The notes: generated by a model not told the origin, from the letters alone. A DNA stretch of 64,000 nucleotides from an uncultured delta proteobacterium (GCA_963790095.1 CAWBNO010000013.1:30857-94856), one strand, 5' to 3'; shown: positions 105 through 54,158, counted from the stretch's first letter. Numbers and translations: made by a program.

Positions 105-189
105 AAAGAATTCCTTTCGAGTAAAACTTTTTTTCAGAATCGATATCAAACTCCCATAAAATGGTCAAGGTGACAAAATGATCTCACCG

Positions 190-459
190 GGTTAATGTAT
201 TTGAATCCCAATAGAGAGAGAACGCTCCGCGACGGCGCATATCTCTTTCAAACCGACTGAAACTTGTGCTTAAGCACCCGTAAGCCCGAGCCGTGCCAGA
301 GTTATAAAGAACAATTCGTCCATAAAATATCCGATGGATGTCTTAAACCATAATTTCATTCGGCTCGGTCTAACGTGTGCTAAAGCCCTTCAAACAGCCA
401 GTCGGTTTCCAAGAGAAACGCGCCGTCGCTTCGGTGTACCGAAACCAAATGCGTTTGCC
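190..459 (-). repeat. Family-A structured repeat, copy 1 (~270 nt imperfect palindrome; MITE-like element or structured RNA)
   Basis: Terminal inverted repeats of the type GGCAAACGCATTTG / CAAATGCGTT. A long interrupted stem: GCGACGGCGC..AAACCGACTG pairs with CAGTCGGTTT..GCGCCGTCGC, and CTTAAGCAC..CCGAGCCG pairs with CGGCTCGG..GTGCTAAAG. Near-identical copies lie at 24165-24436 and 53786-54053. The strand given is the one on which stem mismatches become G-U pairs. Confidence 0.85.
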
Positions 460-635
460 ATGAATAATCTTGCGGTGAGGGTTTGAAGCCGTTTCGATTC
501 ATCTTCCCATTGCCGTGGGCGGCAGACGTTGGGAATTCAGGAAATCGGTCGGGATATTTTGCCGGCCGTTGGGCATAACTTATTGACAAAATAATAATTT
601 TTGTTCAAAATAAACCACATGGCTTGTTAGATGCT

Positions 636-809: not shown

Positions 810-1652
810 ATGGCAAGGTTGAAAATACTTCCACCCGGCAGCACGAAGCATGCCAGGGCCCAGGCCCGGGGAAAGTTGTTCCAAGGACTGGTGTCTCAGG
901 TGCTGCACCACTATGGATATGATATCCACCGTCTTTTTCATGCAAACACCCCTGAAATGGAAGTCGAGGTAGAGGGAACGCATACACCCACCGGCGCGCC
1001 ATTTTATGCGGATTGCACCTTCGGTGAAACACCGGTGTCGGCTTCCCACCTTCAGGCATTTTACGGCAAGTACATGGGAAGATGGCATCAAGAGAAACGA
1101 TGCCACGGACTTTTCATGGCACTGCCCGGCATCGACCGCGCTGCCGGAGAATTTTATCGAGATTATATCGCGAAAAATTCAGACGTCACCGCAGTTCTTT
1201 ATGAAGAAGATGCGGTTCTGAAAGCAGTTTCAGCGTCCTCGGGGATTGCCGGCCCGGACGTCCAGGCAAAACATGTTTTCCGGAATATGGGAACTTCCGG
1301 CGATCCTTTTCTGTTTTACACGGAAAAAGGCGTGTTCTGGACCTGGATCACCCCATCAAAAGGCAAAGAAAATCCAAACAGATTTGCGCTTTTCGACAAA
1401 ACCGGTTCTTTGGTATCCGATCCGTCGGTCTTCGCTTATGTCACGAAGTTGTATCCGAAACTTGCCGATTTCGATCCGATTGTTCGTGAAGAGACCGTAG
1501 GTCTTCAGCCCGGTCTGTTTCAAGATACCGATGAAATTGTCGAAGTCCGGGGGGAACGGAATGCTTTGGGTACCACTACCCTGCATCCCCCGGTGACTTT
1601 GTGGGAAGAAAGTCTTTGCTCAACGCACTCGAGGTCTTTGCAGAAACCGTAA
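810..1652 (+). CDS. PD-(D/E)xK (Mrr-like) restriction-endonuclease-fold protein, probably the N-terminal part of a frameshifted fusion with the next ORF
   Basis: 280-aa ORF. The N-terminus (GKLFQGLVSQVLHHYGYDI ... EMEVEVEG ... FYADCTF) resembles the Mrr catalytic-core layout by eye. The last 52 nt overlap the next ORF in another frame. Confidence 0.55.
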   Translation: MARLKILPPGSTKHARAQARGKLFQGLVSQVLHHYGYDIHRLFHANTPEMEVEVEGTHTPTGAPFYADCTFGETPVSASHLQAFYGKYMGRWHQEKRCHGLFMALPGIDRAAGEFYRDYIAKNSDVTAVLYEEDAVLKAVSASSGIAGPDVQAKHVFRNMGTSGDPFLFYTEKGVFWTWITPSKGKENPNRFALFDKTGSLVSDPSVFAYVTKLYPKLADFDPIVREETVGLQPGLFQDTDEIVEVRGERNALGTTTLHPPVTLWEESLCSTHSRSLQKP

Positions 1653-3637
1653 CCCATAAAGAAACATCCCATCGCGGCATTCTTTTCGAAGGGCCTTCGG
1701 GGTGGGGGAAAAGTTCATTGGTTCTGGCCAGTGTTGCACGACTGGAGAAAATGGCGCATTTTGCCGTTGCCATAGATTCCCGAACCGCCGCATCGTCCAA
1801 TTTCATTTTGTGTTTAATGCACCATATCATGGAAAAGTACCAAGACTTCGGGGGTCTATTCCCCCAAGGGGACCGATCCGGATGGATCACCGGCCATGAC
1901 CGTGGGGTTAAGTCGATTCTCGAAATGGGAAACGTACTTGAATCCCATGGCAAACTGCTGTTCATTTTCTTGGATCAGTTTGATCACTGTTTCTCTTTGC
2001 CTGGGGTGATTGAACCCATAAAAGACCTGTTCCTTAAAATATGCCGTGAACAGACGAATATCGTTCTGGGATTTTCGTGGAACAAGGATCTTGTTTCAGG
2101 GGCACGTGGATCTTACAAAGAATTGGGTGATGCGGTTACGGATAACAGTCAAAAAATGATCCTGAACAATTTCTCCGGCGCCGAAACCGATGCATTGTTG
2201 AAAAAACTGAGCGATGAATTGAATGAAACCTTAATCGAAGACCTCCGATGGTTCCTGATGGAATTTTCACAAGGATATCCCTGGCTCCTGAAAATGCTCT
2301 GCTTTCATGTCAAGGTGGCCCGGCAGTCCGGGATTCCACAGGACCATATTGCCGGCAATCTTTTGAGTGTCGAAGAACTTTTCCAGCATGACCTGGAAAA
2401 GCTGTCGGATAAAGGGCGGGTTTCTCTGAGCCATATCGCCCAATTTGCACCCATGCGTCCGGCGGAATCACCCGGCATGCTCGCCCCTCATGTTGTTCAA
2501 AATTTAATCGACCAGAAGTTGGTCCAAAAAATCGGCAATACCGTGGACGTCTCCGGAGAGGTCCTTAGAAATTACCTGAATACCGGCACCCTGCCGTTTC
2601 AGGACAATCCCATCCTCGGAGCCGCCGTCGGGGATGTTGTTAACGCTGTCAATATCCTGCATGCAGCCAACGGCTCACTGGATATTTCCCAATTAAAGGG
2701 CCGGACCGGCCTGGCTGGAGCCCTGTTTTACCGGGTTGCAAAAGATATGGATCAACTCGGGGTTGTCAGATTCGGCAAGGGGACGGCATCCCTGGAAATA
2801 GCGTTGCCTGCCGGGCACCCTGATATGGAAGCATCATTGAGAAAACACCTCCGGGACAGGCTTCGAGGCATTCGTTCGGTTCAGGGGCTTTTAAAAAATT
2901 TGGAAGAAAAAAATACCCTTGACATGGATGACGTATCCGCTCTGTTCGAAATTTCGGTGTCCTACAGATCCGTTGCCGGTAAAGCCGGGTTGAAATATGC
3001 CCGTATTTTGGCGGAATGGATGGACTTTGCCGATCTTGCCGTTTGGAATAAAAAAAATAGAGTGCTCGCTTTCTTTGACCCGGCAACAGAAATCCGAGAG
3101 CGTCGCCTCCTGTTGCCCAAAAGACGTGGATCTAAAATCCCGCAGATCCAGTATTCCCCGGTTGAAGAGATGGCGGAAAGGCTTTTCCAGGCGCTTCAAG
3201 GGGACGGCCGGGTGGATTGGACCGGTTTTGGCAAAAATGCCGTTTTTAGAACCCTGGCAACCCTGGAAGACCTGGGTTTCATCGTTCGGCGGGCGCCATT
3301 GATTAAAATGCTGCCCAAGGGGCAAGAATTCGTGCAGAATATGGACAAACGTCCTGCACTGTTTGCAGAAGGGGCCTTGCAGATGCCCTCGTTTCCAATT
3401 TTCATGGAGATACTCGAATCCCATCGGTTTAAAGGCAATACACTTTTGGGGCTCGGTGTGGAACTCAAAGAGAAGCTCGGCACCAACTGGAAGGACAGTA
3501 CCGCCGAAAACATCGCCAAAATTATGCTCGATTGGGCGCGTCATGCCAAACTCGCTCCGGGGGTGTTTGCCCGGATTCGAAAGGGACCCATAAAAGGGTG
3601 GAAAAAGAAGGATGACCGGCAGATGGCCCTGTTTTAA
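1601..3637 (+). CDS. P-loop NTPase of the AAA_16/STAND type with C-terminal winged-helix-like segments
   Basis: Walker A GPSGWGKSS, Walker B-like LLFIFLDQFD and a GYPWLLKML motif. The GTG start has no visible SD. The frame is open back to 1535 and reads ...ASPGDFVGRKSLLNALEVF, an FxGR(E/K)xEL-type pre-P-loop motif. That argues the true N-terminus lies upstream. Confidence 0.7.
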   Translation: MGRKSLLNALEVFAETVTHKETSHRGILFEGPSGWGKSSLVLASVARLEKMAHFAVAIDSRTAASSNFILCLMHHIMEKYQDFGGLFPQGDRSGWITGHDRGVKSILEMGNVLESHGKLLFIFLDQFDHCFSLPGVIEPIKDLFLKICREQTNIVLGFSWNKDLVSGARGSYKELGDAVTDNSQKMILNNFSGAETDALLKKLSDELNETLIEDLRWFLMEFSQGYPWLLKMLCFHVKVARQSGIPQDHIAGNLLSVEELFQHDLEKLSDKGRVSLSHIAQFAPMRPAESPGMLAPHVVQNLIDQKLVQKIGNTVDVSGEVLRNYLNTGTLPFQDNPILGAAVGDVVNAVNILHAANGSLDISQLKGRTGLAGALFYRVAKDMDQLGVVRFGKGTASLEIALPAGHPDMEASLRKHLRDRLRGIRSVQGLLKNLEEKNTLDMDDVSALFEISVSYRSVAGKAGLKYARILAEWMDFADLAVWNKKNRVLAFFDPATEIRERRLLLPKRRGSKIPQIQYSPVEEMAERLFQALQGDGRVDWTGFGKNAVFRTLATLEDLGFIVRRAPLIKMLPKGQEFVQNMDKRPALFAEGALQMPSFPIFMEILESHRFKGNTLLGLGVELKEKLGTNWKDSTAENIAKIMLDWARHAKLAPGVFARIRKGPIKGWKKKDDRQMALF

Positions 3638-4704: not shown

Positions 4705-6454
4705 ATGCCGAATAAAATTAAACATAACAGATTTTGGGCCGGTGTGCCGCCGTGGATATTTATCGGCGCCGTGGTGGTCCTGTTTCCGATTTTTGCCTTT
4801 ATCACCGTCCAGAACATCCACCGCCAGAACCAGAACAACACCCGCCTCTTGCTGGAAAAGGGGGCTGCCCTGATCCGGTCTTTCGAGGCAGGGACAAGGA
4901 CAGGACTGGGAATGAGCCGAAACGAATTCCAGCTCCAGAGACTCCTTGCCGAGACAGCCCAGCAGCCCGACATTCTATATCTTTTGGTCACCGATGTAGA
5001 CGGCAGGATCCTTGCCCACGACAACCCCAAGCATTTGGGAAAATACCATGGCAAAGGTTTGGATCTTAAAAGGATTTCGAATCTTAAAACGGTTCAGTGG
5101 CACATCGTCTCCACCACCAGCGGGAAGAAAATATTTGAAGTGTTCAGCAGATTCCTGCCCCAGGAACGAAGCTTTAGTATGGGGCCCGGCCGCATGATGA
5201 TGCATCTGTGGTTTCAACGGGGGATGGATGAACGAATGGATGTCCCGCCGCCCACGCCGATCATCTTCGTGGGGCTCGACATGACGTCCATCGAAGAGGC
5301 TGTCCGGACTGATACCCGGCATGCCGTTATCATGGGCATTATCCTACTTATGGTTGGATTTGCCGGCATCATTCTTTTATTTTTGGCCCAGAGTTATCGG
5401 GCGACACGGATGTCCCTCTCCAGGATAAAAGCCTTTTCCGACAACCTGGTGGAGCACATGCCCATCGGCTTGGTGGCCACCGATGACCAAAAAAGGATTA
5501 CCTCCCTCAACCATGTGGCCGGAACGATTCTGGGCCTTTCCGCCGAAGCGGTCATGGGGGAAAATGCAGCGGACGTCCTGCCCGAGGATTTGTGGCAGAT
5601 GCTCAAAGACCTGGATATGGAAAAAGGAGTTGTTGAAAAGGAGATGGATTGTGTCGTTGGCGAAGGGGGGATGATCCCCCTTGAAATCAGCGCGACACCA
5701 CTGAGGGATGAAAACGGAACGTTTCTCGGGGATGTGCTCCTGTTCAAGGATCTGAGCGAAGTCCGTTCTTTGAGAAAAGAGATTGCACGGAGCCAGCGTC
5801 TTGCCTCTGTGGGAAGACTTGCCGCCGGTGTTTCCCATGAGATACGCAACCCCTTAAGTTCCATCAAGGGGTTTGCCACCTATTTCAAGGAAAGATACCA
5901 TGATGTTCCGGAAAACCAACAGATCTCCAACCTCATGATTCAGGAAGTCGACCGGTTGAACCGGGTGGTGGGTCAGCTTCATCGAGTTTGCCCGGCCCAT
6001 AAAAATATCGAGAAAATCGATCCCCGTCGAAGCCTTTTTAAAGGATTCTCTCAAACTCATCGAACGGCAGGCTTCGGAAGCGAACATCGACATCAAAACC
6101 CGCTTTGATCTTGAAATAGACACGGCGTTTTTCGATCCGGACAGGATCAACCAGGTCCTTCTGAATCTGTATCTGAACGCCATCGAATCCATGGACCATG
6201 AAGGAACCATGACCGTCGTACTGGAAAAAGATGTGAAAAAGAACGGCATTGAAATCCGGGTTTCGGATACCGGCGCCGGCATCGATGAAAACGATCTTGC
6301 CCATGTTTTCGATCCCTACTTTACCACCAAAGCATCCGGCACTGGTTTGGGATTGGCCATCGTTCACAATATCGTAGAGGCTCACGGCGGGGAGATAAAG
6401 GTGGAGAGCCGATCGGGGCAGGGGACCACGGTTCGTATCGTATTGCCCAACTGA
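4705..6454 (+). pseudogene. ZraS/AtoS-like sensor histidine kinase, split by a +1 frameshift between the DHp and HATPase domains
   Basis: ATG 4705 opens MPNKIKHNRFWAGVPPWIFIGAVVV (TM). PAS-like segment and H-box HEIRNPLSSIKGF. After ...RLNRVVGQL the homologous sequence (I)EFARPIKI...NQVLLNLYLNAIES...GTGLGLAIVHNIVEAHGGEI continues in the next frame, which is open from 5960. The intact paralogue is at 49007-50761. Confidence 0.85.
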
Positions 6455-6474: not shown

Positions 6475-7845
6475 ATGAAACATAAAAAAAACCTATTGAT
6501 CGTTGATGACGACCGCACCCATCGCACCATGTTGCGCACCCTTATCGGGGGCTGGGGATATGATATTGTGGAGGCGGATGACGGTTCCACCGCCATCGAA
6601 GCGGTTCAGAAGCGTCCTTTTGATCTGGTCCTGATGGATGTCAGAATGCTGAAGATCAGCGGCCTTGAAGCCCTCGAAGAGATAAAAGCCTTCAACCCGG
6701 CCATACCGGTAACCATCATGACTGCCTATTCATCGGTTGAAACGGCGGTGGACGCTCTGAAAAAAGGGGCCTACGATTATCTCACAAAACCCCTCGATTT
6801 CGACAAACTTCGACTGACCATAGAACGGGCCATGGAGCACACCCGCCTGAAAGAGGAAAACCGCATTCTCAAGGAAAACCTCGGGAAGCATTTTGACATG
6901 CAGAATATTGTGGGCCGAAGCCCTGCCATGGTGAGCCTGATGGAAACAGTGGCCCATGTGGCCCCGTCCGAAGCCACGGTAATGATCACCGGAGCGTCCG
7001 GTACGGGGAAGGAATTGATTGCAGGGGTGATCCATTACAACAGCCCGAGAAAAGACGGGCCCTTTGTCAAGATCAATTGTGCGGCCATTACGGAAACGCT
7101 CTTGGAATCGGAGCTTTTCGGGCATGAAAAAGGGGCATTCACCGGCGCAGATCGGAGAAAAGAAGGGCGTTTTATTCAGGCACACCACGGGAGCCTGTTC
7201 CTCGACGAGGTGAGTGAAATGTCGCTGACCATGCAGGTCAAACTGCTGCGGGTGCTCCAGGAGAGAGAATTGACCCGGGTGGGGGGTGAAGAAGTGCTCA
7301 AGGTGGATGTCCGGGTCATCGCCGCCACCAACAGAGACCTGATCGATCTGAAAAGTAAAGGGCTGTTCCGTGAGGATCTGTTCTATCGGTTGAACGTTGT
7401 CAGTTTGGAAATTCCGCCCTTGAGCGAGCGGAGAGAAGATATTCCTTTGCTGGCCCAGCATTTTCTCGGGATGTTTTCCGAAAAGAACAATAAAGAGATA
7501 AAGGGGTTCACCCCCGGGGCCATGGATCGCCTGATACGCTATGACTGGCCCGGCAATGTCCGTGAACTCATGAACGCCGTTGAAAGGGGGGTTGTGCTGA
7601 CCCGAACGGATTATCTCGATGTGCAGGATTTTGCCATGGCGCAGAATGGCTCCCGCCCTCCGGCTAAAGCCGTGCCGATGTTGGGCGGAAACGAGAAGAA
7701 CCTGCCTCTGGAGGCGATTGAAAAGGTCGCAGTTCTGCGCATGCTGGAGGCCACGGACGGCAATAAAAGCGAAGCGGCAAGGCGCCTTGGCATTACCCGG
7801 AAAACTCTGCACAAGAAGCTCAAAAAGTACGGAGTCATGGATTGA
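6475..7845 (+). CDS. sigma54-dependent response regulator (NtrC/ZraR/AtoC family)
   Basis: Receiver domain (LIVDDD, LVLMDVRM), AAA+ sigma54-interaction domain (GASGTGKE, ESELFGHEKGAFTGA) and a C-terminal Fis-type HTH. Confidence 0.95.
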   Translation: MKHKKNLLIVDDDRTHRTMLRTLIGGWGYDIVEADDGSTAIEAVQKRPFDLVLMDVRMLKISGLEALEEIKAFNPAIPVTIMTAYSSVETAVDALKKGAYDYLTKPLDFDKLRLTIERAMEHTRLKEENRILKENLGKHFDMQNIVGRSPAMVSLMETVAHVAPSEATVMITGASGTGKELIAGVIHYNSPRKDGPFVKINCAAITETLLESELFGHEKGAFTGADRRKEGRFIQAHHGSLFLDEVSEMSLTMQVKLLRVLQERELTRVGGEEVLKVDVRVIAATNRDLIDLKSKGLFREDLFYRLNVVSLEIPPLSERREDIPLLAQHFLGMFSEKNNKEIKGFTPGAMDRLIRYDWPGNVRELMNAVERGVVLTRTDYLDVQDFAMAQNGSRPPAKAVPMLGGNEKNLPLEAIEKVAVLRMLEATDGNKSEAARRLGITRKTLHKKLKKYGVMD

Positions 7846-7991: not shown

Positions 7992-8104
7992 CTTGTAAAA
8001 AGTGAAACGTGAAATGTAAAACGGCTACATTTAGCACATTAAGAAGCAATATTGCACAACATCTATATTTTTCACGTTTAACTTTTTACTTTTTACCGAA
8101 CGGT
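7992..8104. repeat. Family-B palindromic intergenic repeat, copy 1 (~113 nt)
   Basis: GTAAAAAGTGAAACGTG pairs with CACGTTTAACTTTTTAC. Inner hairpin AAATGTA..TACATTT and palindrome GCAATATTGC. Reverse-complement homologue at 11584-11697. Confidence 0.8.
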
Positions 8105-8193: not shown

Positions 8194-8901
8194 ATGAAGT
8201 ACAAACTCACAGCATTGCTGGTGTTTGCTTTTTTATTTTTCTTTGGTTCGGCGGAATTGTGCCAAAATGTATCGGCCCAACCGCAAACGCCCGTGGAGGA
8301 TTCCCAATTATCCCTCGACGATATTATGGAAAAAATAGAACAACGGTATGCGGTTCCGGGATTCTCGGCACACTTTTTCCAAACTTCGACCCTAAAAGCC
8401 ATGGAAATAACGGACAGTGCATCCGGAAAAGCCTTTTTCAAACGTCCCGGCAAAATGCGATGGGAATATAAAACCCCCAACCGCCAAACCATCATTACCG
8501 ACAACGAAACGTTGTGGATATTCAGGGCCGAAGACAACCAGGTGATGATCGGTAAAGCACCTTCTTTTTTCGAAGGCGGCAAAGGGTTCAGTTTTCTTTC
8601 CGATATGAAATCGATCCAACAGAAATTCAGTATTGCTCTTGAAAAAAAGGCGCAAGATGACTACTATGAGCTGAAGCTTTTACCCAGGGAAAAAGCATTC
8701 GACGTATCGGTCATCTATCTGTCCGTTTCAACCAGAACGTTTGATGTTGTCAAAATTGTTACCGTCAATTCATATGGCGATGAAACCCGGATCGTCTTTA
8801 ACGATATTCAGTTTGCAAAGGAAATCAACGATTCCCTGTTCAGTTTTAAATTGCCCGAAGGGGTAGAAGTGTTGAATCTCGATGAACAGAGAGACCTTTG
8901 A
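8194..8901 (+). CDS. LolA-like outer-membrane lipoprotein carrier protein
   Basis: Signal peptide MKYKLTALLVFAFLFFFGSA. LolA-like core (GKAFFKRPGKMRWEY...ETLWIF). AGGAGA lies 7 nt before ATG 8194; the ORF track extends to 8161. Confidence 0.8.
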   Translation: MKYKLTALLVFAFLFFFGSAELCQNVSAQPQTPVEDSQLSLDDIMEKIEQRYAVPGFSAHFFQTSTLKAMEITDSASGKAFFKRPGKMRWEYKTPNRQTIITDNETLWIFRAEDNQVMIGKAPSFFEGGKGFSFLSDMKSIQQKFSIALEKKAQDDYYELKLLPREKAFDVSVIYLSVSTRTFDVVKIVTVNSYGDETRIVFNDIQFAKEINDSLFSFKLPEGVEVLNLDEQRDL

Positions 8902-9148
8902 AAAACGTCCCCTTTTGTCCAATTCCTGCGTCCCCGATGGGCGAGATTTATCAACAGGCTCAAATTTTAATTCTCGAAATACATAATATATGTCTGTGGT
9001 TTAAATTTTCGCCTTCCTTGGACTTGAACAAAATTGAACATTTTTCAAAGGCCTCAGGTTGAATGAAATCTTTGAAGTATCAGCGATTGATTGAAGAAAA
9101 CTCCGGATCCAAATAATATATAAAAAAATCAGAGCTAAAGGAAAAAAA

Positions 9149-10051
9149 ATGAAGGAAAAGATCAGAAGTTTGTTGAAAGAAAGAAAAGCGATTATGCTTT
9201 CACATAACTACCAACTCCCGGAGATTCAGGATGTTGCAGATCTTTGCGGCGATTCACTGGAGTTGAGTATCAAAGCCGCCCAAACCGATGCCGAAGTCAT
9301 CGTTTTTTGCGGCGTGCATTTTATGGCGGAAACCGCGTCGATTCTGTCTCCGGACAAAACCGTTCTTCTACCCCGTTTAGATGCCGGATGTCCCATGGCC
9401 GATATGATAGCACCGGCGGGGCTGCAAGCCATGCTGGACAAGCTTCCTCCTATGCCGGTGGTCACCTATGTCAATTCCACCGCAGCGGTGAAAGCCCTTT
9501 CCACCATTTGCTGCACCTCGGCCAATGTCGTCGATGTCGTGAACAGTCTGGATGCCCATGAGATACTCATGACGCCGGATCGAAATCTCGCCCTGTACGC
9601 CGCTTCCCAGACAAAAAAGAAGATACACACCTGGGACGGATATTGTCCGATCCATGACAGCCTCAAACCCGAAGATGTGAACCATGCCAGACGGACCTAT
9701 CCGGATGCCGTCTTCATGGCCCATCCGGAATGCCGGCCGGAAGTTCTCGAATTGGCAGATGTTATCCTCAGCACTTCAGGGATGATCCGGTATGCCAAAG
9801 AATCGAAAACCTCCGCCTTTATCGTTGGTACGGAGGTCGGGCTCCTTTATCCCTTGAAAAAAGCCAATCCTGACAAAAAGTTTTACCCGGCCGCCGCCAA
9901 GATGCTGTGTAAAAACATGAAAAAGATCTCCCTTGAAGATGTTGCCAGGAGCCTCGAATTAATGGAAGGAGAGGTCAAGGTGCCTGAAAATGTTCGGCAA
10001 CCGGCCTTTGCAACGGTTCAAAAAATGATCGATTTGTACCTGTCTAAATAG
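9149..10051 (+). CDS. nadA: quinolinate synthase
   Basis: 300 aa with IMLSHNYQ, FCGVHFMAET, DAGCPMADM and MAHPEC, typical NadA signatures. Confidence 0.95.
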   Translation: MKEKIRSLLKERKAIMLSHNYQLPEIQDVADLCGDSLELSIKAAQTDAEVIVFCGVHFMAETASILSPDKTVLLPRLDAGCPMADMIAPAGLQAMLDKLPPMPVVTYVNSTAAVKALSTICCTSANVVDVVNSLDAHEILMTPDRNLALYAASQTKKKIHTWDGYCPIHDSLKPEDVNHARRTYPDAVFMAHPECRPEVLELADVILSTSGMIRYAKESKTSAFIVGTEVGLLYPLKKANPDKKFYPAAAKMLCKNMKKISLEDVARSLELMEGEVKVPENVRQPAFATVQKMIDLYLSK

Positions 10052-10079
10052 ATATATGCGGCCCGAGCCCAGCAGTAGA

Positions 10080-10159
10080 ATTCGTTCATTTGCAAGACGT
10101 CAGGGATGATGTTGTAGCAAGCTGCCGCAACTCCCTGACACCCCAGCAAATGGACGAAT
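10080..10159. terminator. long inverted repeat between convergent nadA and the YebC-family gene (possible bidirectional terminator)
   Basis: ATTCGTTCATTTGC (10080-10093) pairs with GCAAATGGACGAAT (10146-10159). Inner pair GTCAGGGA/TCCCTGAC. No clear U-run on either strand. Confidence 0.35.
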
Positions 10160-10896
10160 CAGACCACCAGGTCTTCGGGAATGTCAGCGTTGGTGTAAAC
10201 CTTTTGGACGTCATCACAATCTTCGAGGGTCTCCATCAATTTGACCATCTGCTCGGCTTCGTTGCCCACAAGGTTCACGGTTGACTGGGGAAGCATGGTA
10301 ATTTCCGCGACGATGAAAGGAATGGATTGGTCTTCTATGGCGGTTCTAACCTGCTCGAAATCTTGTGGGGCGGTGATGACTTCGAAGGTGCTCTCATCTT
10401 CTCTGATATCTTCGGCGCCGGAATCGATGGCGGTTTCCATCAACAGTTCCTCGTCAACGGCATTGTGCTCCACAACAATATACCCCTTTGTTTCGAACAT
10501 CCATGCAACGCATCCGTTGGACCCGAGGTTTCCGCCGGCTTTGGTTAGAATATGACGGATATCCGCCACGGCCCGGTTCTTGTTGTCCGTCAGCGACTCG
10601 ATGTAAATGGCCGCACCGCCGGGGCCGTACCCTTCGTAAACGCTTTCTTCATAATCGACCCCTTCCAATTCACCGGTCCCTTTTTTAATGGCCCGCTCCA
10701 TGTTGTCTTTGGGCATGTTTTCGTTTTTTGCTGCCTGGATGGCGGTCCGCAGTCTGGGGTTTGCAGCGGGATCCCCACCGCCCATCCTTGCCGCCACTGT
10801 AATTTCTTTGATGAGCTTGCTGAAAATCTTACCCCGTTTGGCGTCTGTCGCCCCTTTTTTGTGTTTTATGGAAGACCACTTGCTGTGTCCTGACAT
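10159..10896 (-). CDS. YebC/PmpR-family DNA-binding transcriptional regulator
   Basis: Canonical N-terminus [32 protein letters not shown]; 245 aa. Confidence 0.95.
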
Positions 10897-11583: not shown

Positions 11584-11697
11584 GTTCGGTTTTAGTAAAT
11601 AAAAAGTTAAAAGTAAAAAGTTAAACGTCTTTATGTTGCGTAATATTGCCTCGTATTGTGTTAAATGTAATCGTTTTACATTTTACTTTTTACAATT
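11584..11697. repeat. Family-B palindromic intergenic repeat, copy 2
   Basis: Aligns to the reverse complement of 7992-8104 (AAAAGTAAAAAGTTAAACGT ... AATATTGC ... TAAATGTA.CGTTTTACATTT). Confidence 0.8.
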
Positions 11698-11711
11698 TTA
11701 TTAAATTCGGT

Positions 11712-15400: not shown

Positions 15401-15475
15401 GGTCCCATCGTCTAGCGGTTAGGACGCCGGCCTCTCACGCCGGTAACGGGGGTTCGATTCCCCCTGGGATCACCA
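15401..15475 (+). tRNA. tRNA-Glu (anticodon CUC)
   Basis: Cloverleaf: acceptor GGTCCCA/TGGGATC. Anticodon stem CCGGC/GCCGG with loop CTCTCAC. T-arm GGGGG-TTCGATT-CCCCC. Encoded CCA. Confidence 0.93.
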
Positions 15476-18207: not shown

Positions 18208-18232
18208 AGTGCAATTGTTCCTAAGGCATTAA

Positions 18233-18261
18233 TTATTCGCCTTCGCCTGAATACCCTGCAG
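18233..18261. repeat. left arm of a perfect 29-bp inverted repeat flanking the dinB segment
   Basis: TTATTCGCCTTCGCCTGAATACCCTGCAG. Its exact reverse complement is at 20196-20224. Confidence 0.95.
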
Positions 18262-18305
18262 CTTGTTGGCGTGAAACGGAAATCCCGCCAGCGGGGCTGC
18301 AGGGA
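18254..18305 (+). repeat. hairpin repeat H1 (~50 nt)
   Basis: CCCTGCAGC pairs with GCTGCAGGG. The inner stem TTGTTGGCG/CGCCAGCGG is continuous only with G-U pairs on the + strand. Second copy at 18381-18433. Confidence 0.85.
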
Positions 18306-18380
18306 TGACAGGCATGGTGAACCGCGACGAAGCTTGCCAGAGCGGAGGCGGGTTAGGCTTCGGAGCAATTCCGCTTTGAT

Positions 18381-18433
18381 TTCCCGCAGCTTGTTGGAGT
18401 GAAACGGAAATCCCGCCAGCGGGGCTGCGGGGG
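18381..18433 (+). repeat. hairpin repeat H2
   Basis: TTCCCGCAGC pairs with GCTGCGGGGG. It differs from H1 by a compensatory T-A to C-G change in the outer stem. Confidence 0.85.
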
Positions 18434-18966
18434 TTTCATTAGCGTGGTGTTTATTTGACATTCCTCCAGAAATATTTGGTGGAGCGGATAGATACTGGTT
18501 GTCCAGAAGCGCCTCGGAAACAGAAAGCAATAAGAATGGCCGAAAAAATATGCATGAAATAAAAAACTTTCATGATGATACCGTAAATGTTACTAAATAA
18601 CCAGATTCCCCAAACCCTTAGAATCCCCCAAAAAGTCCAAGTTCAGATCAAGATTCAAACTGACCGAAAAAGATCGGCAGAATATCCGAGATAAAGGTAT
18701 CGACACCATCCGGCAGCACGCGATCGATTTTATCTCCGCAAGGATAGCGCCGCAGTTCCCAAAAAACGATGGCTAACAGACGCCAATGAGAGGTCACCTT
18801 GTTTTCATTGCTCAGCATGCCACGATAACTTGTTGCCGGGGTTGTATTCAGAAGTGGCATGGGATAAAGAAAGGAAAAGAGCTTTCAGATCAGGAGATAC
18901 AGTTTCTTGTTGAATTGATAATGAGATGGATTGAAAGATAAATCTGTTTTCCGAGCACAAGTTTTT

Positions 18967-20148
18967 ATGGACAAGCAAATTCAGTCAAAACACATCATTC
19001 ATTTGGACATGGATGCTTTTTATCCCTCGGTCGAGGTTCTGGACACTCCTGCTTTAAAAGGTAAACCGATCATAGTGGGGGGCAGCAAGGAAAGGGGCGT
19101 GGTATCATCTGCCTCATATGAAGCTCGGAAATTCGGGATTCATTCCGCCCAACCCATTGCGAAAGCAAAACGCCTTTGCCCCGGTGGGATTTTTTTGCCT
19201 GTCCGAATGTCAAGATATCAAGAAGTTTCTAAACAAGTCTTTGAAATATTTCATCGTTTCACGTCATTGGTTGAACCCCTATCTATTGATGAAGCATTTC
19301 TGGATGTAACAGGTTCCATCCGTCTTTTTGGTCAGCCCGAGAACATCGCAAAAAAGATTAAGCAAATAATTTTTTCAGAGACAGGTCTGACAATCTCGGC
19401 CGGTGTTGCGCCTTCAAAATTCGTGGCAAAGATTGCCTCTGACTTTGACAAACCTGACGGTTTAACCGTGGTACATCCCGATGGTGTTAGATATTTCTTA
19501 GATCCGCTTCCAGTCAAAAAAATGTGGGGGATTGGAAAAATGTTGCAGCGACGCTTAAGTCGCCTCAATATCCACACTTTTAAGGATCTGAGACAAACGC
19601 CGGTTGAGATATTGGAGAAAAATTTTGGAAAACAGGGGGCCAAAATACATCTTCTGGCCATGGGAATCGATGATCGAGAGGTTATACCGGAACATGACGT
19701 GAAGTCCATCGGTCATGAACAGACTTTTTCACAGGACATTATCTCTCTGGATTGGGCTGAAAAAGAGCTCCTTGCTTTGGGAAATAAAGTGGCTCGACGG
19801 ATGCGGCATAAGGGCCTAAAAGGAAAAACTGTCACATTGAAAGTCAAATATGGTGATTTTGTTCAGATCACCCGATCCGTAACCTTGCCCAAATCCACGG
19901 ATGACGGTTCGGAGATATATTCAGTTGCTTGTGGTCTTTTAAAAAAGACCGAGGCAACGAAAAAACCAATCCGGCTTTTAGGGATTTCTTTGTCTCATCT
20001 CAGTTTTTTTGGCACCGGGACCCAGCTTTCTCTTTTTGATCAAAACCCGTCATCTCAAAAACGTCAGAGATTGAATACAGTTTTAGATTCGGTATCCGAG
20101 AAATTTGGTGATGAAAGCGTTCTGCCTGGCACGCTTTTATACGATTAG
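18967..20148 (+). CDS. dinB: DNA polymerase IV (Y-family)
   Basis: IIHLDMDAFYPSVE, PIIVGG and SIDEAFLD motifs. First ATG at 18967; the ORF track starts at TTG 18931. Confidence 0.95.
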   Translation: MDKQIQSKHIIHLDMDAFYPSVEVLDTPALKGKPIIVGGSKERGVVSSASYEARKFGIHSAQPIAKAKRLCPGGIFLPVRMSRYQEVSKQVFEIFHRFTSLVEPLSIDEAFLDVTGSIRLFGQPENIAKKIKQIIFSETGLTISAGVAPSKFVAKIASDFDKPDGLTVVHPDGVRYFLDPLPVKKMWGIGKMLQRRLSRLNIHTFKDLRQTPVEILEKNFGKQGAKIHLLAMGIDDREVIPEHDVKSIGHEQTFSQDIISLDWAEKELLALGNKVARRMRHKGLKGKTVTLKVKYGDFVQITRSVTLPKSTDDGSEIYSVACGLLKKTEATKKPIRLLGISLSHLSFFGTGTQLSLFDQNPSSQKRQRLNTVLDSVSEKFGDESVLPGTLLYD

Positions 20149-20195
20149 ATTTGTTGTATTGGCATAAAGTGCCGACGATTTTTAATGGTCAAAAA

Positions 20196-20224
20196 CTGCA
20201 GGGTATTCAGGCGAAGGCGAATAA
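20196..20224. repeat. right arm of the perfect 29-bp inverted repeat
   Basis: CTGCAGGGTATTCAGGCGAAGGCGAATAA is the reverse complement of 18233-18261. Confidence 0.95.
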
Positions 20225-22287: not shown

Positions 22288-24024
22288 TTACCAGTTAAAG
22301 ACCCGGTCAAGATCTTCATCTTTGACGTCAAACGTTACATTGTGGGGCGGGAGCGGCTCTGTCTTGAAGAAATCGGGCAGACGGTCGTCCTTTTGGGTAA
22401 AGCCGGCCCGAGAATTGAAATCCCTTTCAAAGGTAAGGATCGTTTTCCCCAGTTCGGTGACGTCGTCAGCGGTGAGGTTCTGGCCGGTAAATGCGCCGAT
22501 CATGTCAACAAGGGCTTCAAATGTTTCCGGCTGATCCAGAATTGCAAAGGCGATAAACAGGCACATTCCGGTGGCGTCGATGGCGGCCGTTGCGATCTGA
22601 AGATTCCTGGAGAGCTCTACCTGCCCTTCGGAGTTTAGGGGGTCTACACTGCCCCCAACATTGAGAACGTTGGCGGTGACCGCATAACCGGCCGTGTGAT
22701 CGGCCCCCATGGTGGTGGTGGCGTAGGTGACCCCCATCCCCTGAACAGACCGGGGATCATAGGCCGGCAAGGCCTGCCCTTTGACCACAGGAACCCTTTC
22801 AACTCCAAAGACCTTACCGGTTACGGCGGCACCGTTCCCGATAATGCGGCCCAGGGGGGATCCTTTCCCGACCTCCTTCAGAAGATTAATGGCGGCTTCG
22901 GCATCACCGAACTTGGCCACCCCCCCTTCCATGGCCACACCGATGGCGGCACCCATTTCAATGGTATCGAGTCCGTAATCGTCGTCCAGACGATCGAGTT
23001 CGGCGATGGCGTCCATGTCATCGATACCGCAGTTTCCACCGTGGGCCCAGACGGTTTCATATTCCGGTCTCTTGGTAACAAAGTTGCCGTCTTTATCATT
23101 GTAGATGCCCGAGCAGCGGATAACGCAGCCTTTGTGGCAGCCGTGGGCAACCATGCCCCCCCGAGCCTTCATGATTTCCGACTGGGTTTCGCCGCTGATG
23201 TTGCTGGCACCGTCAAACCGGCCGGTTTTAAAGTTATGGGTGGGCAATGCCCCGGCTTCGTTAATGACATTGGTCAAAATGTTGGTCCCGAAGGAAGGGA
23301 GTCCCTCACCGGTTATGGGATGCTTCTTAAGACCCTGGACAAACGCCTTATTGGCTGCTTTAAATTTTTCCGGGTCCTTGGGACTACGGGCGGCCATACC
23401 GGTGTCGTCCAGCACGATGACTTTAACGCCTTTGGATCCCATTACAGCGCCGACACCCCCCCGACCTGCATGCCGGGTGGGTCTCTGCTCCACGTCGGTG
23501 AAGGCGACGGAAGCGGCGGCCATTTTCATTTCACCCGCAGGTCCAATGGAGATACAGGCAACCTTGTCGCCGTATGCTTCCCGGATCGTGTCGATGAGAT
23601 CGTAGTTCCCCATCATCTTCAAACTGTTGTCAGGGGTGATATCTACACCATCTTTGTTGATGACAATTTTATAGAGGGTATCGTCACCGGGTTTTCCTTC
23701 GAGTACTATGGCGGCATATCCGAGCCGGGCGAGGACTTGAGCACCTTGTCCCCCGGAATTGGCTTCTTTGATTCCGCCGGTGAGCGGGCTTTTGCAGCCC
23801 ACCGAAACGCGTCCTGATTGAGCGGCGTGGCTCCCGCTCAACAGCCCGGGGGCAATGACCAGTTTATTGTTTTTTCCGAGGGGATGGCACAACGGTGGTA
23901 CTTCTTTGGCGACAATGGCCGAGGTCATACCGCGGCCGGCCAAACCGGCGTAGTTGCCCAGGGGTTCTTCACTGGCTTTCGGTCCACCGTCCATCCCCAT
24001 GTCGATTCTCAAGAGTTTGTCCAT
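22288..24024 (-). CDS. tungsten-type aldehyde:ferredoxin oxidoreductase (AOR family)
   Basis: 578 aa. AOR N-domain (MDKLLRIDM...GLAGRGMTSAIV...KSPLTGG) and C-terminal pterin/FeS-binding regions (DATGMCLF). Confidence 0.93.
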   Translation of the reverse strand: MDKLLRIDMGMDGGPKASEEPLGNYAGLAGRGMTSAIVAKEVPPLCHPLGKNNKLVIAPGLLSGSHAAQSGRVSVGCKSPLTGGIKEANSGGQGAQVLARLGYAAIVLEGKPGDDTLYKIVINKDGVDITPDNSLKMMGNYDLIDTIREAYGDKVACISIGPAGEMKMAAASVAFTDVEQRPTRHAGRGGVGAVMGSKGVKVIVLDDTGMAARSPKDPEKFKAANKAFVQGLKKHPITGEGLPSFGTNILTNVINEAGALPTHNFKTGRFDGASNISGETQSEIMKARGGMVAHGCHKGCVIRCSGIYNDKDGNFVTKRPEYETVWAHGGNCGIDDMDAIAELDRLDDDYGLDTIEMGAAIGVAMEGGVAKFGDAEAAINLLKEVGKGSPLGRIIGNGAAVTGKVFGVERVPVVKGQALPAYDPRSVQGMGVTYATTTMGADHTAGYAVTANVLNVGGSVDPLNSEGQVELSRNLQIATAAIDATGMCLFIAFAILDQPETFEALVDMIGAFTGQNLTADDVTELGKTILTFERDFNSRAGFTQKDDRLPDFFKTEPLPPHNVTFDVKDEDLDRVFNW

Positions 24025-24110: not shown

Positions 24111-24138
24111 AGTTTATCGCAGTTATCCGGAATGTCAA
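24111..24138 (-). promoter_or_regulatory. candidate sigma70 promoter for AOR
   Basis: TTGACA (24138-24133), 16-nt spacer, TAAACT (24116-24111). It lies between family-A copy 2 and the AOR ATG. Confidence 0.35.
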
Positions 24139-24164
24139 GCAAAACCATAATTCGCTAAAGGGCA

Positions 24165-24436
24165 GGGCAAAAGCATTTGAATCCCAATAGAGAGAGAACG
24201 CTCCACGGCGGCGCATATCTCTTTCCAACCGACTGGAACTTGTGCTTAAGCACCCGTAAGCCCGAGCCGTGCGAAGGTTATAAAGAATAATTCGTCAAAA
24301 ACATATCCGATGGATGTTTTAAATCATAATTTCATTCGGCTCGGTCTAACGTGTGCTAAAGCCCTTCAAACAGCCAGTCGGTTTCCAAGAGAAACACGCC
24401 GTCGCTTTGCTGTAACGAAATCAAATGCGTTAACCC
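24165..24436 (-). repeat. Family-A structured repeat, copy 2
   Basis: Aligns end to end with 190-459 (roughly nine in ten positions by eye), same strand. It lies 140 nt upstream of the AOR start. Confidence 0.85.
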
Positions 24437-24586
24437 TGCGCTAAAGAGGTAACCGCATTGAAAAAAAATATGATTTATGAGATAGTCCCGGCAGGTATGG
24501 AAAAACATCGATCATGGAGAAACGGTGAGGATTGATCCGGGGAAACCTTTATCCCAGAATTGAAGGTGTACATTTTTAATCATTTT

Positions 24587-52818: not shown

Positions 52819-53016
52819 AGGGTTTTTCCTTGTTCATCGATGGTTGTCTGTTTTTAAATCATTGAAATAACGAAGCCACTCCGCCAACCCGCCTGCCATG
52901 CGAGGTACGAGCGGGCAGGTATCGTTACACGGGGAAGCGCACCCCCTGAACACGTACCCGGAATTTATCCAGCAATATATTTATCCGGCATGATATAGGG
53001 GTGACGGGGTTATATT

Positions 53017-53762: not shown

Positions 53763-53785
53763 TATCAACAAAATATTTCAGAGAG

Positions 53786-54053
53786 GGGTAAGGCATCTCA
53801 TTTCGGTACAGCGAAGCGACGGTGTGTTTCTCTTGGAAATCGACTGACTGTTTGAAGGGCTTTAGCACGCGTTAGACCGAGCCGAATGAAATTATGATTT
53901 AAAACACCCATCGGATATTTTATCGATATTGTTCTTTATAACTCTGGCACGGCTCGGGCTTACGGGTGCTTAAGCACAAGTTTCAGTCGGTTGGAAAGAG
54001 ATATACGCCGTCGTGGAGCGTTCTCTCTATCGGGATTCAAATGCGTTTGCCCT
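53786..54053 (+). repeat. Family-A structured repeat, copy 3 (inverted relative to copies 1 and 2)
   Basis: Reverse complement aligns end to end with 190-459 and 24165-24436. It lies 201 nt upstream of the hydrolase start. Confidence 0.85.
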
Positions 54054-54158
54054 GCTATTTCAGAAGATTCTTCTCCAATTAAGTCGGGGAAGCGGGAACA
54101 AGGATTTGAGGATTCAATGGGACGTTTGTTCTCTAAAGGCGTAAGTTGGCAAAATACG

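What the first reader, a model, noticed from the sequence alone, without database searches (positions are those of the whole stretch)
190..459. Family A: a ~270-nt imperfect-palindrome element present three times, each time upstream of and co-oriented with a gene
Copies at 190-459, 24165-24436 and 53786-54053 align end to end.
- Each has ~15-nt terminal inverted repeats and a ~65-bp interrupted central stem closing a ~70-nt apical region.
- If 'sense' is defined by copy 3 on the + strand, every copy points towards the next gene start: acyl-CoA ligase at 84 nt, AOR at 140 nt, alpha/beta hydrolase at 201 nt.
- All three downstream genes plausibly act on fatty acids, aldehydes or lipids.
- I do not recognise the element as any known RNA family or IS end.
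- It could be a MITE, an sRNA or cis-RNA, or a protein-binding scaffold.
- Three co-oriented copies alone is weak evidence (about 1 in 4 by chance).
Basis: seen in the sequence. Interest (0 to 1): 0.72.

Follow-up and report, generated by a model that had tools for sequence, protein, structure and literature searches.

The report
Promoter-hunting miniature transposon in Desulfobacterales
The three 270-base repeats are copies of a small non-coding jumping element (a MITE) common in sulfate-reducing Desulfobacterales, and its copies almost always sit exactly 19 bases upstream of the first recognition box (TTGACA) of a gene's promoter, an insertion rule I could not find described for any bacterial transposon.

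Summary
Three copies lie at 187-462(-), 24163-24438(-) and 53783-54054(+). They are 91-97% alike, and each is one long fold-back hairpin.

The element is a MITE, not an RNA gene.
- It has 18-bp terminal inverted repeats (CAGGGYAAACGCATTTGA) and 10-bp target-site duplications.
- It has no coding capacity and no Rfam match.
- More than 230 further loci were found in 27 Desulfobacterales MAG species and in metagenomes.
- Four clean filled/empty site pairs exist.

All three window copies lie between apparently divergent genes, and across the family orientation is random.

What is unusual is where copies land. In 86 of 145 independent sites, a TTGACA-like hexamer (at least 5 of 6) starts 19-21 nt outside one end, that is, the 10-bp duplication plus 9 bp. 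At other offsets about 4% of sites match. A TA..T -10 box follows 17 bp further on, with a gene reading outward. The hexamer is already present in empty sites. Copies with perfect duplications show the rule as often as decayed ones. The same 10 bp has been hit repeatedly.

Best explanation: a transposase acting in trans integrates the element at -55/-45 of sigma-70-type promoters. No autonomous partner was found. The CAGGG ends and 10-bp duplications resemble the ISAs1 family.

The parts
187..462 (-). Copy 1 of the 276-nt MITE. The sense strand is the window's minus strand. Both terminal repeats are partly decayed (CATGG... at 445-462, CCGGG... at 187-204).
177..186 (.). Copy 1 target-site duplication, low-coordinate copy. 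In sense orientation it reads TGAGATCATT.
   Evidence: 7 of 10 match with 463-472
463..472 (.). Copy 1 target-site duplication, high-coordinate copy. In sense orientation it reads CAAGATTATT.
163..168 (-). TTGACC -35-like hexamer starting 19 nt outside the 3' end of copy 1. It faces the acyl-CoA-ligase-like reading frame that starts at 104 (-). The -10 box is weak.
24163..24438 (-). Copy 2 of the MITE. Both terminal repeats are intact (CAGGGCAAAAGCATTTGA at 24163-24180 and CAGGGTTAACGCATTTGA at 24421-24438 on the minus strand).
24153..24162 (.). Copy 2 target-site duplication (plus strand CGCTAAAGGG).
   Evidence: 9 of 10 match with 24439-24448
24439..24448 (.). Copy 2 target-site duplication (plus strand CGCTAAAGAG).
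24458..24486 (+). Promoter-like site TTGAAA-17-(TG)GATAGT. Its -35 hexamer starts exactly 20 nt outside the 5' end of copy 2. It faces the small reading frame at 24560-24901, which has a signal-peptide-like start.
24111..24138 (-). Promoter-like site TTGACA-16-TAAACT in front of the aldehyde:ferredoxin oxidoreductase gene (22288-24024, minus strand). Its hexamer starts 25 nt outside the 3' end of copy 2, which is off the canonical distance.
53783..54054 (+). Copy 3 of the MITE. The 5' terminal repeat is decayed (GAGGGGTAAGGCATCTCA). The 3' repeat is perfect (54037-54054).
53773..53782 (.). Copy 3 target-site duplication (ATATTTCAGA).
   Evidence: 9 of 10 match with 54055-54064
54055..54064 (.). 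Copy 3 target-site duplication (CTATTTCAGA). No -35-like hexamer lies at the canonical offset on either side of this copy.

Best explanation
The element is a non-autonomous DNA transposon (a fold-back MITE). Its consensus is 276 bp.

Shown here:
- It has 18-bp terminal inverted repeats starting 5'-CAGGG.
- It makes 10-bp target-site duplications.
- It encodes nothing.
- It is dispersed at up to at least 15 sampled loci per genome in many Desulfobacterales species.
- It is present at some orthologous sites and absent from others.

Inferred: a DDE transposase encoded elsewhere binds the terminal repeats, excises or copies the element, and makes cuts staggered by 10 bp in the target.

Shown as a pattern, with the cause inferred: the staggered cut is placed so that 9 bp separate the duplicated 10 bp from a TTGACA-type -35 hexamer, on either side of the element. 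If the hexamer occupies -35 to -30, the duplication occupies -54 to -45, and the element starts at -55 of a sigma-70-type promoter.

The transpososome therefore measures its distance from the -35 box. It could do so by reading the hexamer directly, or by docking on promoter-bound RNA polymerase holoenzyme.

The core promoter and the gene stay intact, so such sites are safe havens, and the same 10 bp can be reused. The long hairpin is the fold-back architecture of the element. There is no good evidence that it acts as an RNA. Orientation carries no information, because it is random and differs between species at the same site.
For: MITE identity:
- The terminal repeats are present.
- An exact 10-bp duplication occurs in 18 of 84 copies against 0 of 84 in the control. 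At least 8 of 10 positions match in 47 of 80 unique sites against 1 of 80, and in 38 of 65 new sites.
- All six frames contain stop codons. A search with the translated arm found only 113 clusters of spurious 42-111 aa reading frames.
- More than 116 loci were found in 27 species-representative MAGs, and more than 120 metagenome loci.
- Filled/empty pairs: L001 against L021; L141 against L169, L014 against L238, and L218 against L058 and L145.

Targeting:
- TTGAC starts at offset 20 in 19 right flanks and 11 left flanks of 84. No other offset has more than 4.
- 51 of 84 copies have at least 5 of 6 matches to TTGACA at offsets 19-21 on one side. Windows centred elsewhere give 3.6 copies on average.
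- This was replicated with an anchor from the other arm in another collection: 37 of 65 new sites, against 2.8.
- Registered on the hexamer, T at -12 occurs in 58 of 89 flanks, A at -11 in 60 of 89 and T at -7 in 40 of 89, with a 17-bp spacer. The duplicated 10 bp show no sequence preference.
- Sides that carry the hexamer have 43 genes reading outward and 6 reading inward. Sides without it have 52 and 37.
- The hexamer is present in three of the four empty alleles; the fourth has a TTGCAT, 4 of 6.
- The association does not depend on age: 20 of 34 copies with perfect duplications, 21 of 32 with fewer than 5 of 10 matching.
- L034 and L088 use the same 10 bp (GCATTGGCGT) with the element in opposite orientations.
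- L081 carries a second copy inserted into the duplication beside an older mini copy, while L169 has only the mini copy.
- Even the 59 sites without a strong hexamer are enriched for TTG at offsets 20-22.
- No copy lies inside a gene.
Against: - No autonomous element or transposase with these ends was found in 1.7 Mb of fetched loci or through the peptide search. Mobilisation in trans is therefore inferred only.
- Purifying selection removes insertions inside genes, and must contribute to the intergenic, promoter-rich distribution. Targeting and selection cannot be fully separated from sequence alone.
- About 40% of sites lack a match of 5 of 6 or better. Only one or two of the three window copies obey the rule cleanly.
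- Same-site copies in different species differ 18% in the outer 30-40 nt of each end but only 7.6-8.4% in the inner stems. A purely neutral, dead element would not obviously behave so. This could mean selection on the stem, or gene conversion between copies.
- All promoters are predictions. There are no transcription data.
Confidence: 0.8

Rival explanations
1. A structured RNA (sRNA, or a cis-regulatory leader or upstream RNA) that acts on the downstream gene.
For: - The hairpin is very stable (z = -6.6).
- The sense strand folds about 21 kcal/mol better than the antisense strand, because of G-U pairs.
- The inner stems are better conserved than the ends.
- 92.5% of pair cells are standard pairs.
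Against: - There is no Rfam match at the gathering score or at E up to 10.
- Orientation relative to the neighbouring gene or promoter is random, and it flips at orthologous sites.
- Copies lie upstream of the -35 box, so the adjacent promoter does not transcribe them.
- No promoter-like site lies within the copy examined.
- Changes on both sides of a pair (44 cells) fall within the range of the slid controls, 38-68.
- An unbiased comparison of the two arms gives 6 G-T against 4 A-C mismatches, so the strand asymmetry is weak.
- Duplications and empty sites show that the element is mobile DNA.
Confidence: 0.05
2. An ordinary MITE with no target preference. On this view the promoter-proximal position is produced only by selection: insertions elsewhere are lost, or insertions at exactly this distance are favoured because the element end helps the promoter.
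For: - Selection against insertions inside genes must operate.
- All copies are intergenic.
- The terminal repeat would sit at -55 to -72, where class I activators bind. That point rests on general knowledge, not on a test here.
Against: - The distance is kept to a single base over 145 sites.
- The frequency is the same in copies with perfect duplications as in decayed ones.
- The same 10 bp has been used independently, in the opposite orientation and in tandem.
- Nothing is enriched at other intergenic offsets.
- A second MITE family in the same genomes, with duplications of about 5 bp, shows no such flank. Only 10 copies were examined.
Confidence: 0.12
3. An exapted regulatory module. After insertion the conserved inner stem is kept by selection as a protein-binding or DNA-structural element, such as an insulator, an upstream activating site, or a sigma-54-like GG-N10-GC motif in the 3' arm. 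It would then rewire the adjacent promoter.
For: - The inner stems diverge 7.6-8.4% between same-site copies, against 18% for the ends. The surrounding flanks of those pairs, including coding parts, differ roughly 5-19% in BLAST.
- TGGCAC-N5-GGGC occurs in the 3' arm, in register with GG-N10-GC, in 72 of 84 copies.
Against: - Gene conversion among dozens of copies would also homogenise the interior more than the edges.
- The T of TGGC is present in only 56 of 84 copies. The -12 element lacks the usual TT. The GG is no better conserved than its neighbours.
- The neighbouring genes are functionally unrelated.
- Deletion derivatives that lack most of the stem still occur at such sites.
Confidence: 0.1
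4. A non-mobile extragenic palindrome of the REP/BIME or ERIC type, spread by recombination rather than by transposition.
For: It is an imperfect palindrome, strictly intergenic and multicopy.
Against: - It has defined terminal inverted repeats.
- It has 10-bp duplications of unrelated sequence.
- Precise empty sites hold a single copy of the duplicated 10 bp.
- Its size is 276 bp.
Confidence: 0.02

Closest known systems
Bacterial MITEs such as Correia/NEMIS elements (Neisseria), RUP (Streptococcus pneumoniae), MITEAba12 and Nezha
   Same: Short and non-coding, with terminal inverted repeats, duplications of fixed length, many dispersed intergenic copies and a hairpin-forming sequence. They are mobilised in trans.
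   Different: The 2024 review of prokaryotic MITEs (PMC10969869) reports no positional rule relative to promoters. Correia elements duplicate TA and carry their own promoter pieces (from memory). This element duplicates 10 bp, shows no promoter-like site in the copy scanned, and lands at a fixed distance from an existing -35 box.
ISAs1 family insertion sequences (for example the E. coli H-repeat / yhhI element)
   Same: The ends begin 5'-CAGGG(N)AA. The E. coli K-12 yhhI element has CAGGGAAAGATC... at one end and ...ATCTTGCCCTG at the other. The family's duplications of 8-10 bp (ISfinder, from memory) fit the 10 bp seen here.
   Different: Only about 8 terminal bases are shared. No ISAs1-type transposase was found in 1.7 Mb of loci (tblastn). 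I know of no promoter-directed targeting reported for this family.
Ty3 and Ty1 (yeast) and TRE5-A (Dictyostelium): integration at a fixed distance upstream of RNA polymerase III genes
   Same: The insertion position is set by the transcription-initiation machinery or site of a gene. That leaves the gene intact (a safe haven) and allows repeated use of the same site.
   Different: Those are eukaryotic retrotransposons tethered by TFIIIB or Pol III subunits (from memory). This is a bacterial DNA transposon next to sigma-70-type promoters, and whether protein tethering or direct DNA reading is used is unknown. This is a likeness in how it works, not membership.
Bacterial elements with structured safe-haven targets: IS1397/ISKpn1 and IS110-family members in REP sequences, group II introns after terminators, Tn7 at attTn7
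   Same: Strong preference for a defined class of extragenic site (PMC1525189 for insertion sequences in REPs, listed; the rest from memory).
   Different: Those targets are REP palindromes, terminators or a single att site. None is the -35 region of promoters.
ERIC and REP/BIME extragenic palindromes
   Same: Intergenic, imperfectly palindromic and multicopy.
   Different: They lack terminal repeats bounded by target duplications. Here filled and empty alleles prove insertion.

Membership tests
MITE (miniature inverted-repeat transposable element) | Short (tens to a few hundred bp) and without coding capacity | tested here: met
   The consensus is 276 nt with stop codons in all six frames. 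Public proteins matching it are only 42-111 aa spurious calls.
MITE (miniature inverted-repeat transposable element) | Terminal inverted repeats | tested here: met
   The 18-bp repeat CAGGGYAAACGCATTTGA occurs at both ends.
MITE (miniature inverted-repeat transposable element) | Target-site duplication of fixed length and variable sequence | tested here: met
   The duplication is 10 bp. It is exact in 18 of 84 copies against 0 of 84 in the control. At least 8 of 10 match in 47 of 80 sites against 1 of 80, and this was replicated.
MITE (miniature inverted-repeat transposable element) | Many dispersed copies, with presence/absence differences at orthologous sites | tested here: met
Four filled/empty pairs were found.
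MITE (miniature inverted-repeat transposable element) | A cognate autonomous element with the same ends that supplies the transposase | tested here: inconclusive
   None was found among 236 loci or by peptide search. Whole genomes could not be searched.
ISAs1-family derivative | Ends starting 5'-CAGGG | tested here: met
   Compared with the E. coli K-12 yhhI element, whose ends are CAGGGAAAGAT and CAGGGCAAGAT. That this holds for the whole family is from memory of ISfinder.
ISAs1-family derivative | Duplications of 8-10 bp | tested here: met
   10 bp here. The family range is from memory.
ISAs1-family derivative | Mobilised by an ISAs1-type DDE transposase | not testable with these tools
   tblastn with YhhI found no such gene in the fetched loci. 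Showing mobilisation needs an experiment.
Described RNA family (Rfam) or cis-regulatory RNA | Match to a curated covariance model | tested here: not met
   The only hit in the window is a tRNA at 15401-15472. Nothing credible appears at E up to 10 over copy 3.
Described RNA family (Rfam) or cis-regulatory RNA | Covariation supporting the structure | tested here: inconclusive
   44 cells changed on both sides, against 21.6 in shuffles, but slid controls give 38-68.
Described RNA family (Rfam) or cis-regulatory RNA | Fixed orientation and position within the transcription unit it regulates | tested here: not met
   Orientation is random (16 against 14, 49 against 40). Copies lie upstream of the -35 box.
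REP/BIME or ERIC extragenic palindromes | No terminal repeats plus target duplication; not inserted by transposition | tested here: not met
   Duplications and precise empty sites are present.

The most novel reading that the evidence does not exclude
Integration is guided by the transcription machinery itself. On this reading the (unknown) transposase docks on sigma-70 holoenzyme, or on the sigma region 4 / alpha-CTD complex bound at the -35 box, and cuts one helical turn (10 bp) starting 9 bp upstream. That would make it a bacterial counterpart of Ty3 and Ty1 targeting of Pol III genes. A weaker version is that the transposase carries its own -35-reading DNA-binding domain. Either version gives a transposon family whose copies mark active promoters in uncultured Desulfobacterales.
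Probability: 0.2. Interest if true: 0.9.

Novelty: new variant of a known kind. Interest (0 to 1): 0.66.

Why it matters
- **A new kind of target rule.** A bacterial DNA transposon that inserts at one fixed distance from the -35 box of promoters would be a new kind of target-site selection. It is a safe-haven strategy known from eukaryotic retrotransposons, but I could not find it described for bacteria in the searched literature. The mechanism can be tested directly once the transposase is found.
- **A source of promoter data.** The copies flag real promoters in organisms that cannot be cultured. From 89 flanks one reads a TTGACA-17-TA..T architecture for Desulfobacterales.
- **A cause of errors in public data.** The family breaks MAG assemblies: about one hit in six is cut by a contig end. 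It has also seeded public databases with more than 100 clusters of spurious 'hypothetical proteins'.
- **Possible effects on regulation.** Each insertion moves whatever lay upstream of -55 a further 286 bp away, so the family may have rewired the regulation of many genes.

Tried and rejected
- **Rfam.** The gathering-score scan of the window and a permissive scan of copy 3 found nothing.
- **blastn of the consensus against plasmids.** Only chance 27-nt hits.
- **Scan of viral contigs with the terminal repeat.** Two chance matches that are not the element.
- **Search for solitary terminal repeats or autonomous copies in the loci.** None found.
- **Partial copies checked as possible ends of a parent element.** These were L011, L096, L142 and L191, plus the paired copies in L131 and L151. 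All the adjacent genes are housekeeping genes.
- **The arm as a relic of a transposase C-terminus.** A search of 5.8 billion proteins with the translated arm returned only short spurious reading frames.
- **tblastn with E. coli YhhI against all loci.** Nothing found.
- **Strand asymmetry as evidence for an RNA.** Arm-against-arm alignment gives 6 G-T against 4 A-C mismatches, so I did not rely on it.
- **A sigma-54 promoter in the 3' arm.** The GG-N10-GC register is present, but the T of TGGC and the -12 TT are not conserved. I rejected it as a main explanation.
- **Insertions that disrupt genes.** Six reconstructed sites lay in long stop-free stretches. All turned out to be upstream of the real start codon or at a gene's extreme 3' end.
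- **Literature.** Searches for promoter-directed insertion sequences or MITEs, and for the element's own sequence, found no prior description.

Full report
**1. The observation**

The three copies exist and align over their whole length. Identity is 91% for copy 1 against copy 2, and 90-97% for the arms against copy 3.

Using the terminal repeats and the flanking duplications, the limits are 187-462 (-), 24163-24438 (-) and 53783-54054 (+).

The terminal repeat CAGGGCAAACGCATTTGA matches four of the six ends with 2 mismatches or fewer. Shuffled sequence gives 0.1 matches in the whole window.

Each copy folds as one long interrupted hairpin. Copy 3 gives -109.3 kcal/mol (z = -6.6) on the sense strand and -87.0 (z = -5.7) on the antisense strand.

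Each copy is flanked by a 10-bp direct repeat: 7 of 10, 9 of 10 and 9 of 10 positions match.

Rfam finds only a tRNA in the window and nothing at the element.

**2. The gene context in the window**

- Copy 1 lies between a reading frame that leaves the window at its left edge (start at 104, minus strand) and 810-1652 (+).
- Copy 2 lies between the aldehyde:ferredoxin oxidoreductase gene (22288-24024, minus strand; Pfam AFOR_N and AFOR_C) and a small reading frame at 24560-24901 (+).
- Copy 3 lies between a low-molecular-weight phosphatase gene (53017-53607, minus strand) and an alpha/beta hydrolase gene (54255-55304, plus strand).

All three regions are flanked by reading frames that read away from the element, though two of them (810-1652 and 24560-24901) have no family match. 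A copy in either orientation would therefore point at a gene start.

**3. The family**

All hits are in MAGs labelled Desulfobacterales, Desulfobacteraceae, Deltaproteobacteria or Thermodesulfobacteriota. They come from 27 assemblies, with up to 15 loci per assembly.

A profile of the three window copies found 131 non-overlapping hits, 87 of them full length. About one hit in six is cut by a contig end, which is typical of repeats that break assemblies.

The 276-nt consensus folds at -141.2 kcal/mol (sense) and -119.9 (antisense). Copies are 92.6% identical to it at the median.

These hold 132 hits, 89 of them full length. They also include deletion derivatives of about 94-165 nt that keep both ends.

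**4. It is a transposon**

- Flanks of full-length copies show direct repeats of unrelated sequence immediately outside CAGGG...CCCTG.
- An exact 10-bp repeat occurs in 18 of 84 copies, against 0 of 84 when flanks are paired between different copies.
- At least 8 of 10 positions match in 47 of 80 unique sites, against 1 of 80. In the 65 new metagenome sites, 38 match at 8 of 10 or better.
- Four orthologous pairs have the element in one sequence and a single copy of the 10 bp in the other: L001 against L021; L141 against L169 (97% identity over 588 nt); L014 against L238; and L218 against L058 and L145.
- All six frames of the consensus contain stop codons.
- A search of the large protein database with the translated arm returned 113 clusters, all 42-111 aa and without Pfam domains. 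These are spurious gene calls inside copies.
- No copy interrupts a gene. The six reconstructed sites that lay in long stop-free stretches were upstream of the true start or at the extreme 3' end.

**5. Orientation and structure**

Where only one neighbouring gene reads away from the element, the element points at it 16 times and away from it 14 times. In 29 cases both neighbours read outward.

At orthologous sites the element can be in opposite orientations. L034 and L088 share the same duplication, GCATTGGCGT. L077 and L089 differ in orientation from L110.

On the full hairpin, 92.5% of pair cells are standard pairs. However, the 44 cells changed on both sides are matched or exceeded when the 3' partners are slid by 1-3 columns (38-68 cells). 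Covariation therefore does not support a selected RNA structure.

An arm-against-arm alignment gives 6 G-T against 4 A-C mismatches, which is only a weak strand asymmetry.

Same-site copies in different species differ 18.0% in the outer parts (columns 1-29 and 253-294), 11.7% in the loop, and 7.6-8.4% in the inner stems. This is unexplained. Gene conversion among copies, which spares the edges, and selection on the stem are both possible.

**6. The unexpected finding: where copies land**

Reading outward from either end, TTGAC starts at offset 20 in 19 of 84 right flanks and 11 of 84 left flanks, with a few more at offsets 19 and 21. No other offset has more than 4. Offset 20 means the 10-bp duplication plus 9 bp.

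Counting matches of at least 5 of 6 to TTGACA at offsets 19-21:
- 51 of 84 copies have one on at least one side: 28 on the 3' side only, 20 on the 5' side only, and 3 on both.
- The same test centred elsewhere in the flanks gives 3.6 copies on average.

The result was replicated on 65 new unique sites found with an independent anchor in a different collection. There 37 have the hexamer (20 on the 3' side, 17 on the 5' side), against a background of 2.8.

Even the 59 sites without a match of 5 of 6 are enriched for T, T, G at offsets 20-22. Of these, 27 have 4 of 6 at exactly offset 20, against 8 scoring 4 or more at a control offset.

**7. The hexamers are promoters**

I registered 89 hexamer-bearing flanks from 145 unique sites on TTGACA. 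The next signal is T at -12 (58 of 89), A at -11 (60 of 89) and T at -7 (40 of 89), after a 17-bp spacer. The duplicated 10 bp (-54 to -45) and everything upstream show no preference.

Sides with the hexamer are followed by a gene reading outward in 43 cases and inward in 6. The start codon typically lies 60-180 nt from the element. Sides without the hexamer give 52 and 37.

The hexamer is already present in three of the four empty alleles: GTCAA-N9-GCAAGAATCT in L169, TTGTCCAATT-N9-TTGACT in L238, and TSD-N9-TTGATA and TTGACA in L058 and L145. The fourth, L021, has a 4-of-6 TTGCAT at the same distance. It is therefore part of the target, not of the element.

**8. Targeting or selection?**

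- The association is as strong in copies with perfect duplications (20 of 34, and 19 of their hexamers lie at exactly offset 20) as in the most decayed ones (21 of 32).
- The same 10 bp has been used twice. It appears in opposite orientations in two species. It also appears in tandem: in L081 a full copy sits in the duplication beside an older mini copy, while L169 has only the mini copy and one GCCTCGGTAA.
- A second MITE family in the same genomes (terminal repeat GAGACCTTTGMAAAACG, duplications of about 5 bp) shows no such flank in the 10 copies examined.

These points favour site selection at the moment of integration. Selection against insertions inside genes then acts on top of that.

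Sequence alone cannot decide whether the transposase reads TTGACA itself or docks on promoter-bound RNA polymerase. The near-consensus quality of the hexamers and their occurrence on either side fit both.

**9. In the window**

- Copy 1 has TTGACC (168 to 163, minus strand) 19 nt beyond its 3' end. It faces the acyl-CoA-ligase-like reading frame.
- Copy 2 has TTGAAA-17-(TG)GATAGT (24458-24486, plus strand) exactly 20 nt beyond its 5' end. This faces away from the oxidoreductase gene. The oxidoreductase-side TTGACA-16-TAAACT (24138 to 24111, minus strand) is at offset 25.
- Copy 3 has no hexamer at the canonical distance and has a decayed 5' end.

**10. The missing partner**

No autonomous element was found.
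- There are no solitary terminal repeats in the loci.
- There is no transposase next to partial or paired copies.
- tblastn with E. coli YhhI found nothing in 1.7 Mb.

The ends resemble those of the ISAs1 family. The E. coli K-12 yhhI H-repeat element begins CAGGGAAAGATC and ends ATCTTGCCCTG, and that family is listed with 8-10-bp duplications (my memory of ISfinder). This is a lead, not a demonstrated membership.

**11. What is known**

The searched literature includes a 2024 review of prokaryotic MITEs and several targeted searches. It holds no description of a bacterial insertion sequence or MITE that integrates at a fixed distance from -35 boxes. The element's own sequence appears in no held paper.

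The closest functional parallels are Ty3, Ty1 and TRE5-A upstream of Pol III genes, and bacterial elements that target REPs, terminators or attTn7.

**12. Verdict**

The finding is real, and the element is a MITE. The RNA and co-orientation reading is not supported.

The family's precise placement at -55/-45 of sigma-70-type promoters is a well-supported and replicated pattern that appears to be new. I rate the kind as a new variant of a known kind and the interest as moderately high.

Noticed in passing
window 8891-9055; also L022 3282-3423, L003 1818-1959, L043 1116-1261, L066 2622-2765, L109 5805-5947: A second fold-back MITE family of about 143-165 nt, with terminal repeats GAGACCTTTGMAAAACG and duplications of about 5 bp (for example TCTCT, TATTC). 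In L022, L003 and L043 it is inserted inside copies of the 276-nt family.
   Followed up: partly
window 53547-53766, with a half copy at 52855-52976; also L191 8327-8543, L203 1660-1872, L026 4200-4400, L088 7204-7425, L138, L155: A third palindromic repeat family of about 215 nt lies 7 nt from the left duplication of copy 3. It overlaps the called start of the phosphatase reading frame (53017-53607, minus strand), so that start codon is probably called too far upstream.
   Followed up: partly
window 18226-18440, 20193-20224 and 55362-55422: Two tandem 61-nt repeats (87% alike) and an inverted 32-nt partner bracket a DinB/IMS-type polymerase gene (18931-20148). A weaker copy lies at 55362. Related sequences occur in L164, L032, L229, L183 and L046.
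   Followed up: partly
window 7997-8095 and 11600-11698: A 99-nt inverted repeat (78% complementary) brackets about 3.5 kb. No related sequence occurs in the other loci.
   Followed up: partly
window 54069-54106 and 55462-55499: A 38-nt inverted repeat (87% complementary) brackets the alpha/beta hydrolase gene (54255-55304), directly to the right of copy 3.
   Followed up: no
L230 4729-4863, L210 about 6546-6710, L238 about 6178-6341, L137 about 10044-10208, L169 about 9193-9286, L190 about 1289-1386: Short deletion derivatives of the 276-nt element (about 94-165 nt). They keep both terminal repeats, with recurrent breakpoints after ...GCACGCG (model position about 90).
   Followed up: partly
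alignment A3, columns 1-29 and 253-294 against 30-104 and 198-252: Between same-site copies in different species, the ends of the element diverge more than twice as fast (18%) as the inner stems (7.6-8.4%). Gene conversion or selection could explain it; this is unresolved.
   Followed up: partly
L034 1231-1506 against L088 6171-6446; L077 and L089 against L110; L081 7047-7419 against L169: The same 10-bp target is occupied in opposite orientations in different species. In L081 a second copy is inserted in the duplication beside an older mini copy.
   Followed up: yes
window 53945-53959 (copy 3), and the equivalent position in copy 1: TGGCAC-N5-GGGC in the 3' arm is in the GG-N10-GC register of sigma-54 promoters. 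It occurs in 72 of 84 copies, but the flanking consensus positions are not conserved, and copy 2 has CG in place of GG.
   Followed up: partly
public protein databases (P0001-P0113): 113 clusters of 42-111 aa 'hypothetical proteins' are translations of copies of this element. They are annotation artefacts.
   Followed up: yes
window 15401-15472: A tRNA gene (Rfam RF00005, 64.8 bits). It is the only Rfam hit in the window.
   Followed up: no
window 1601-3637: A 678-aa reading frame with weak matches, below Pfam's cut-offs, to a STAND NTPase (nSTAND1) and to the AAA-associated C-terminal domain. It may be a defence or signalling NTPase.
   Followed up: no
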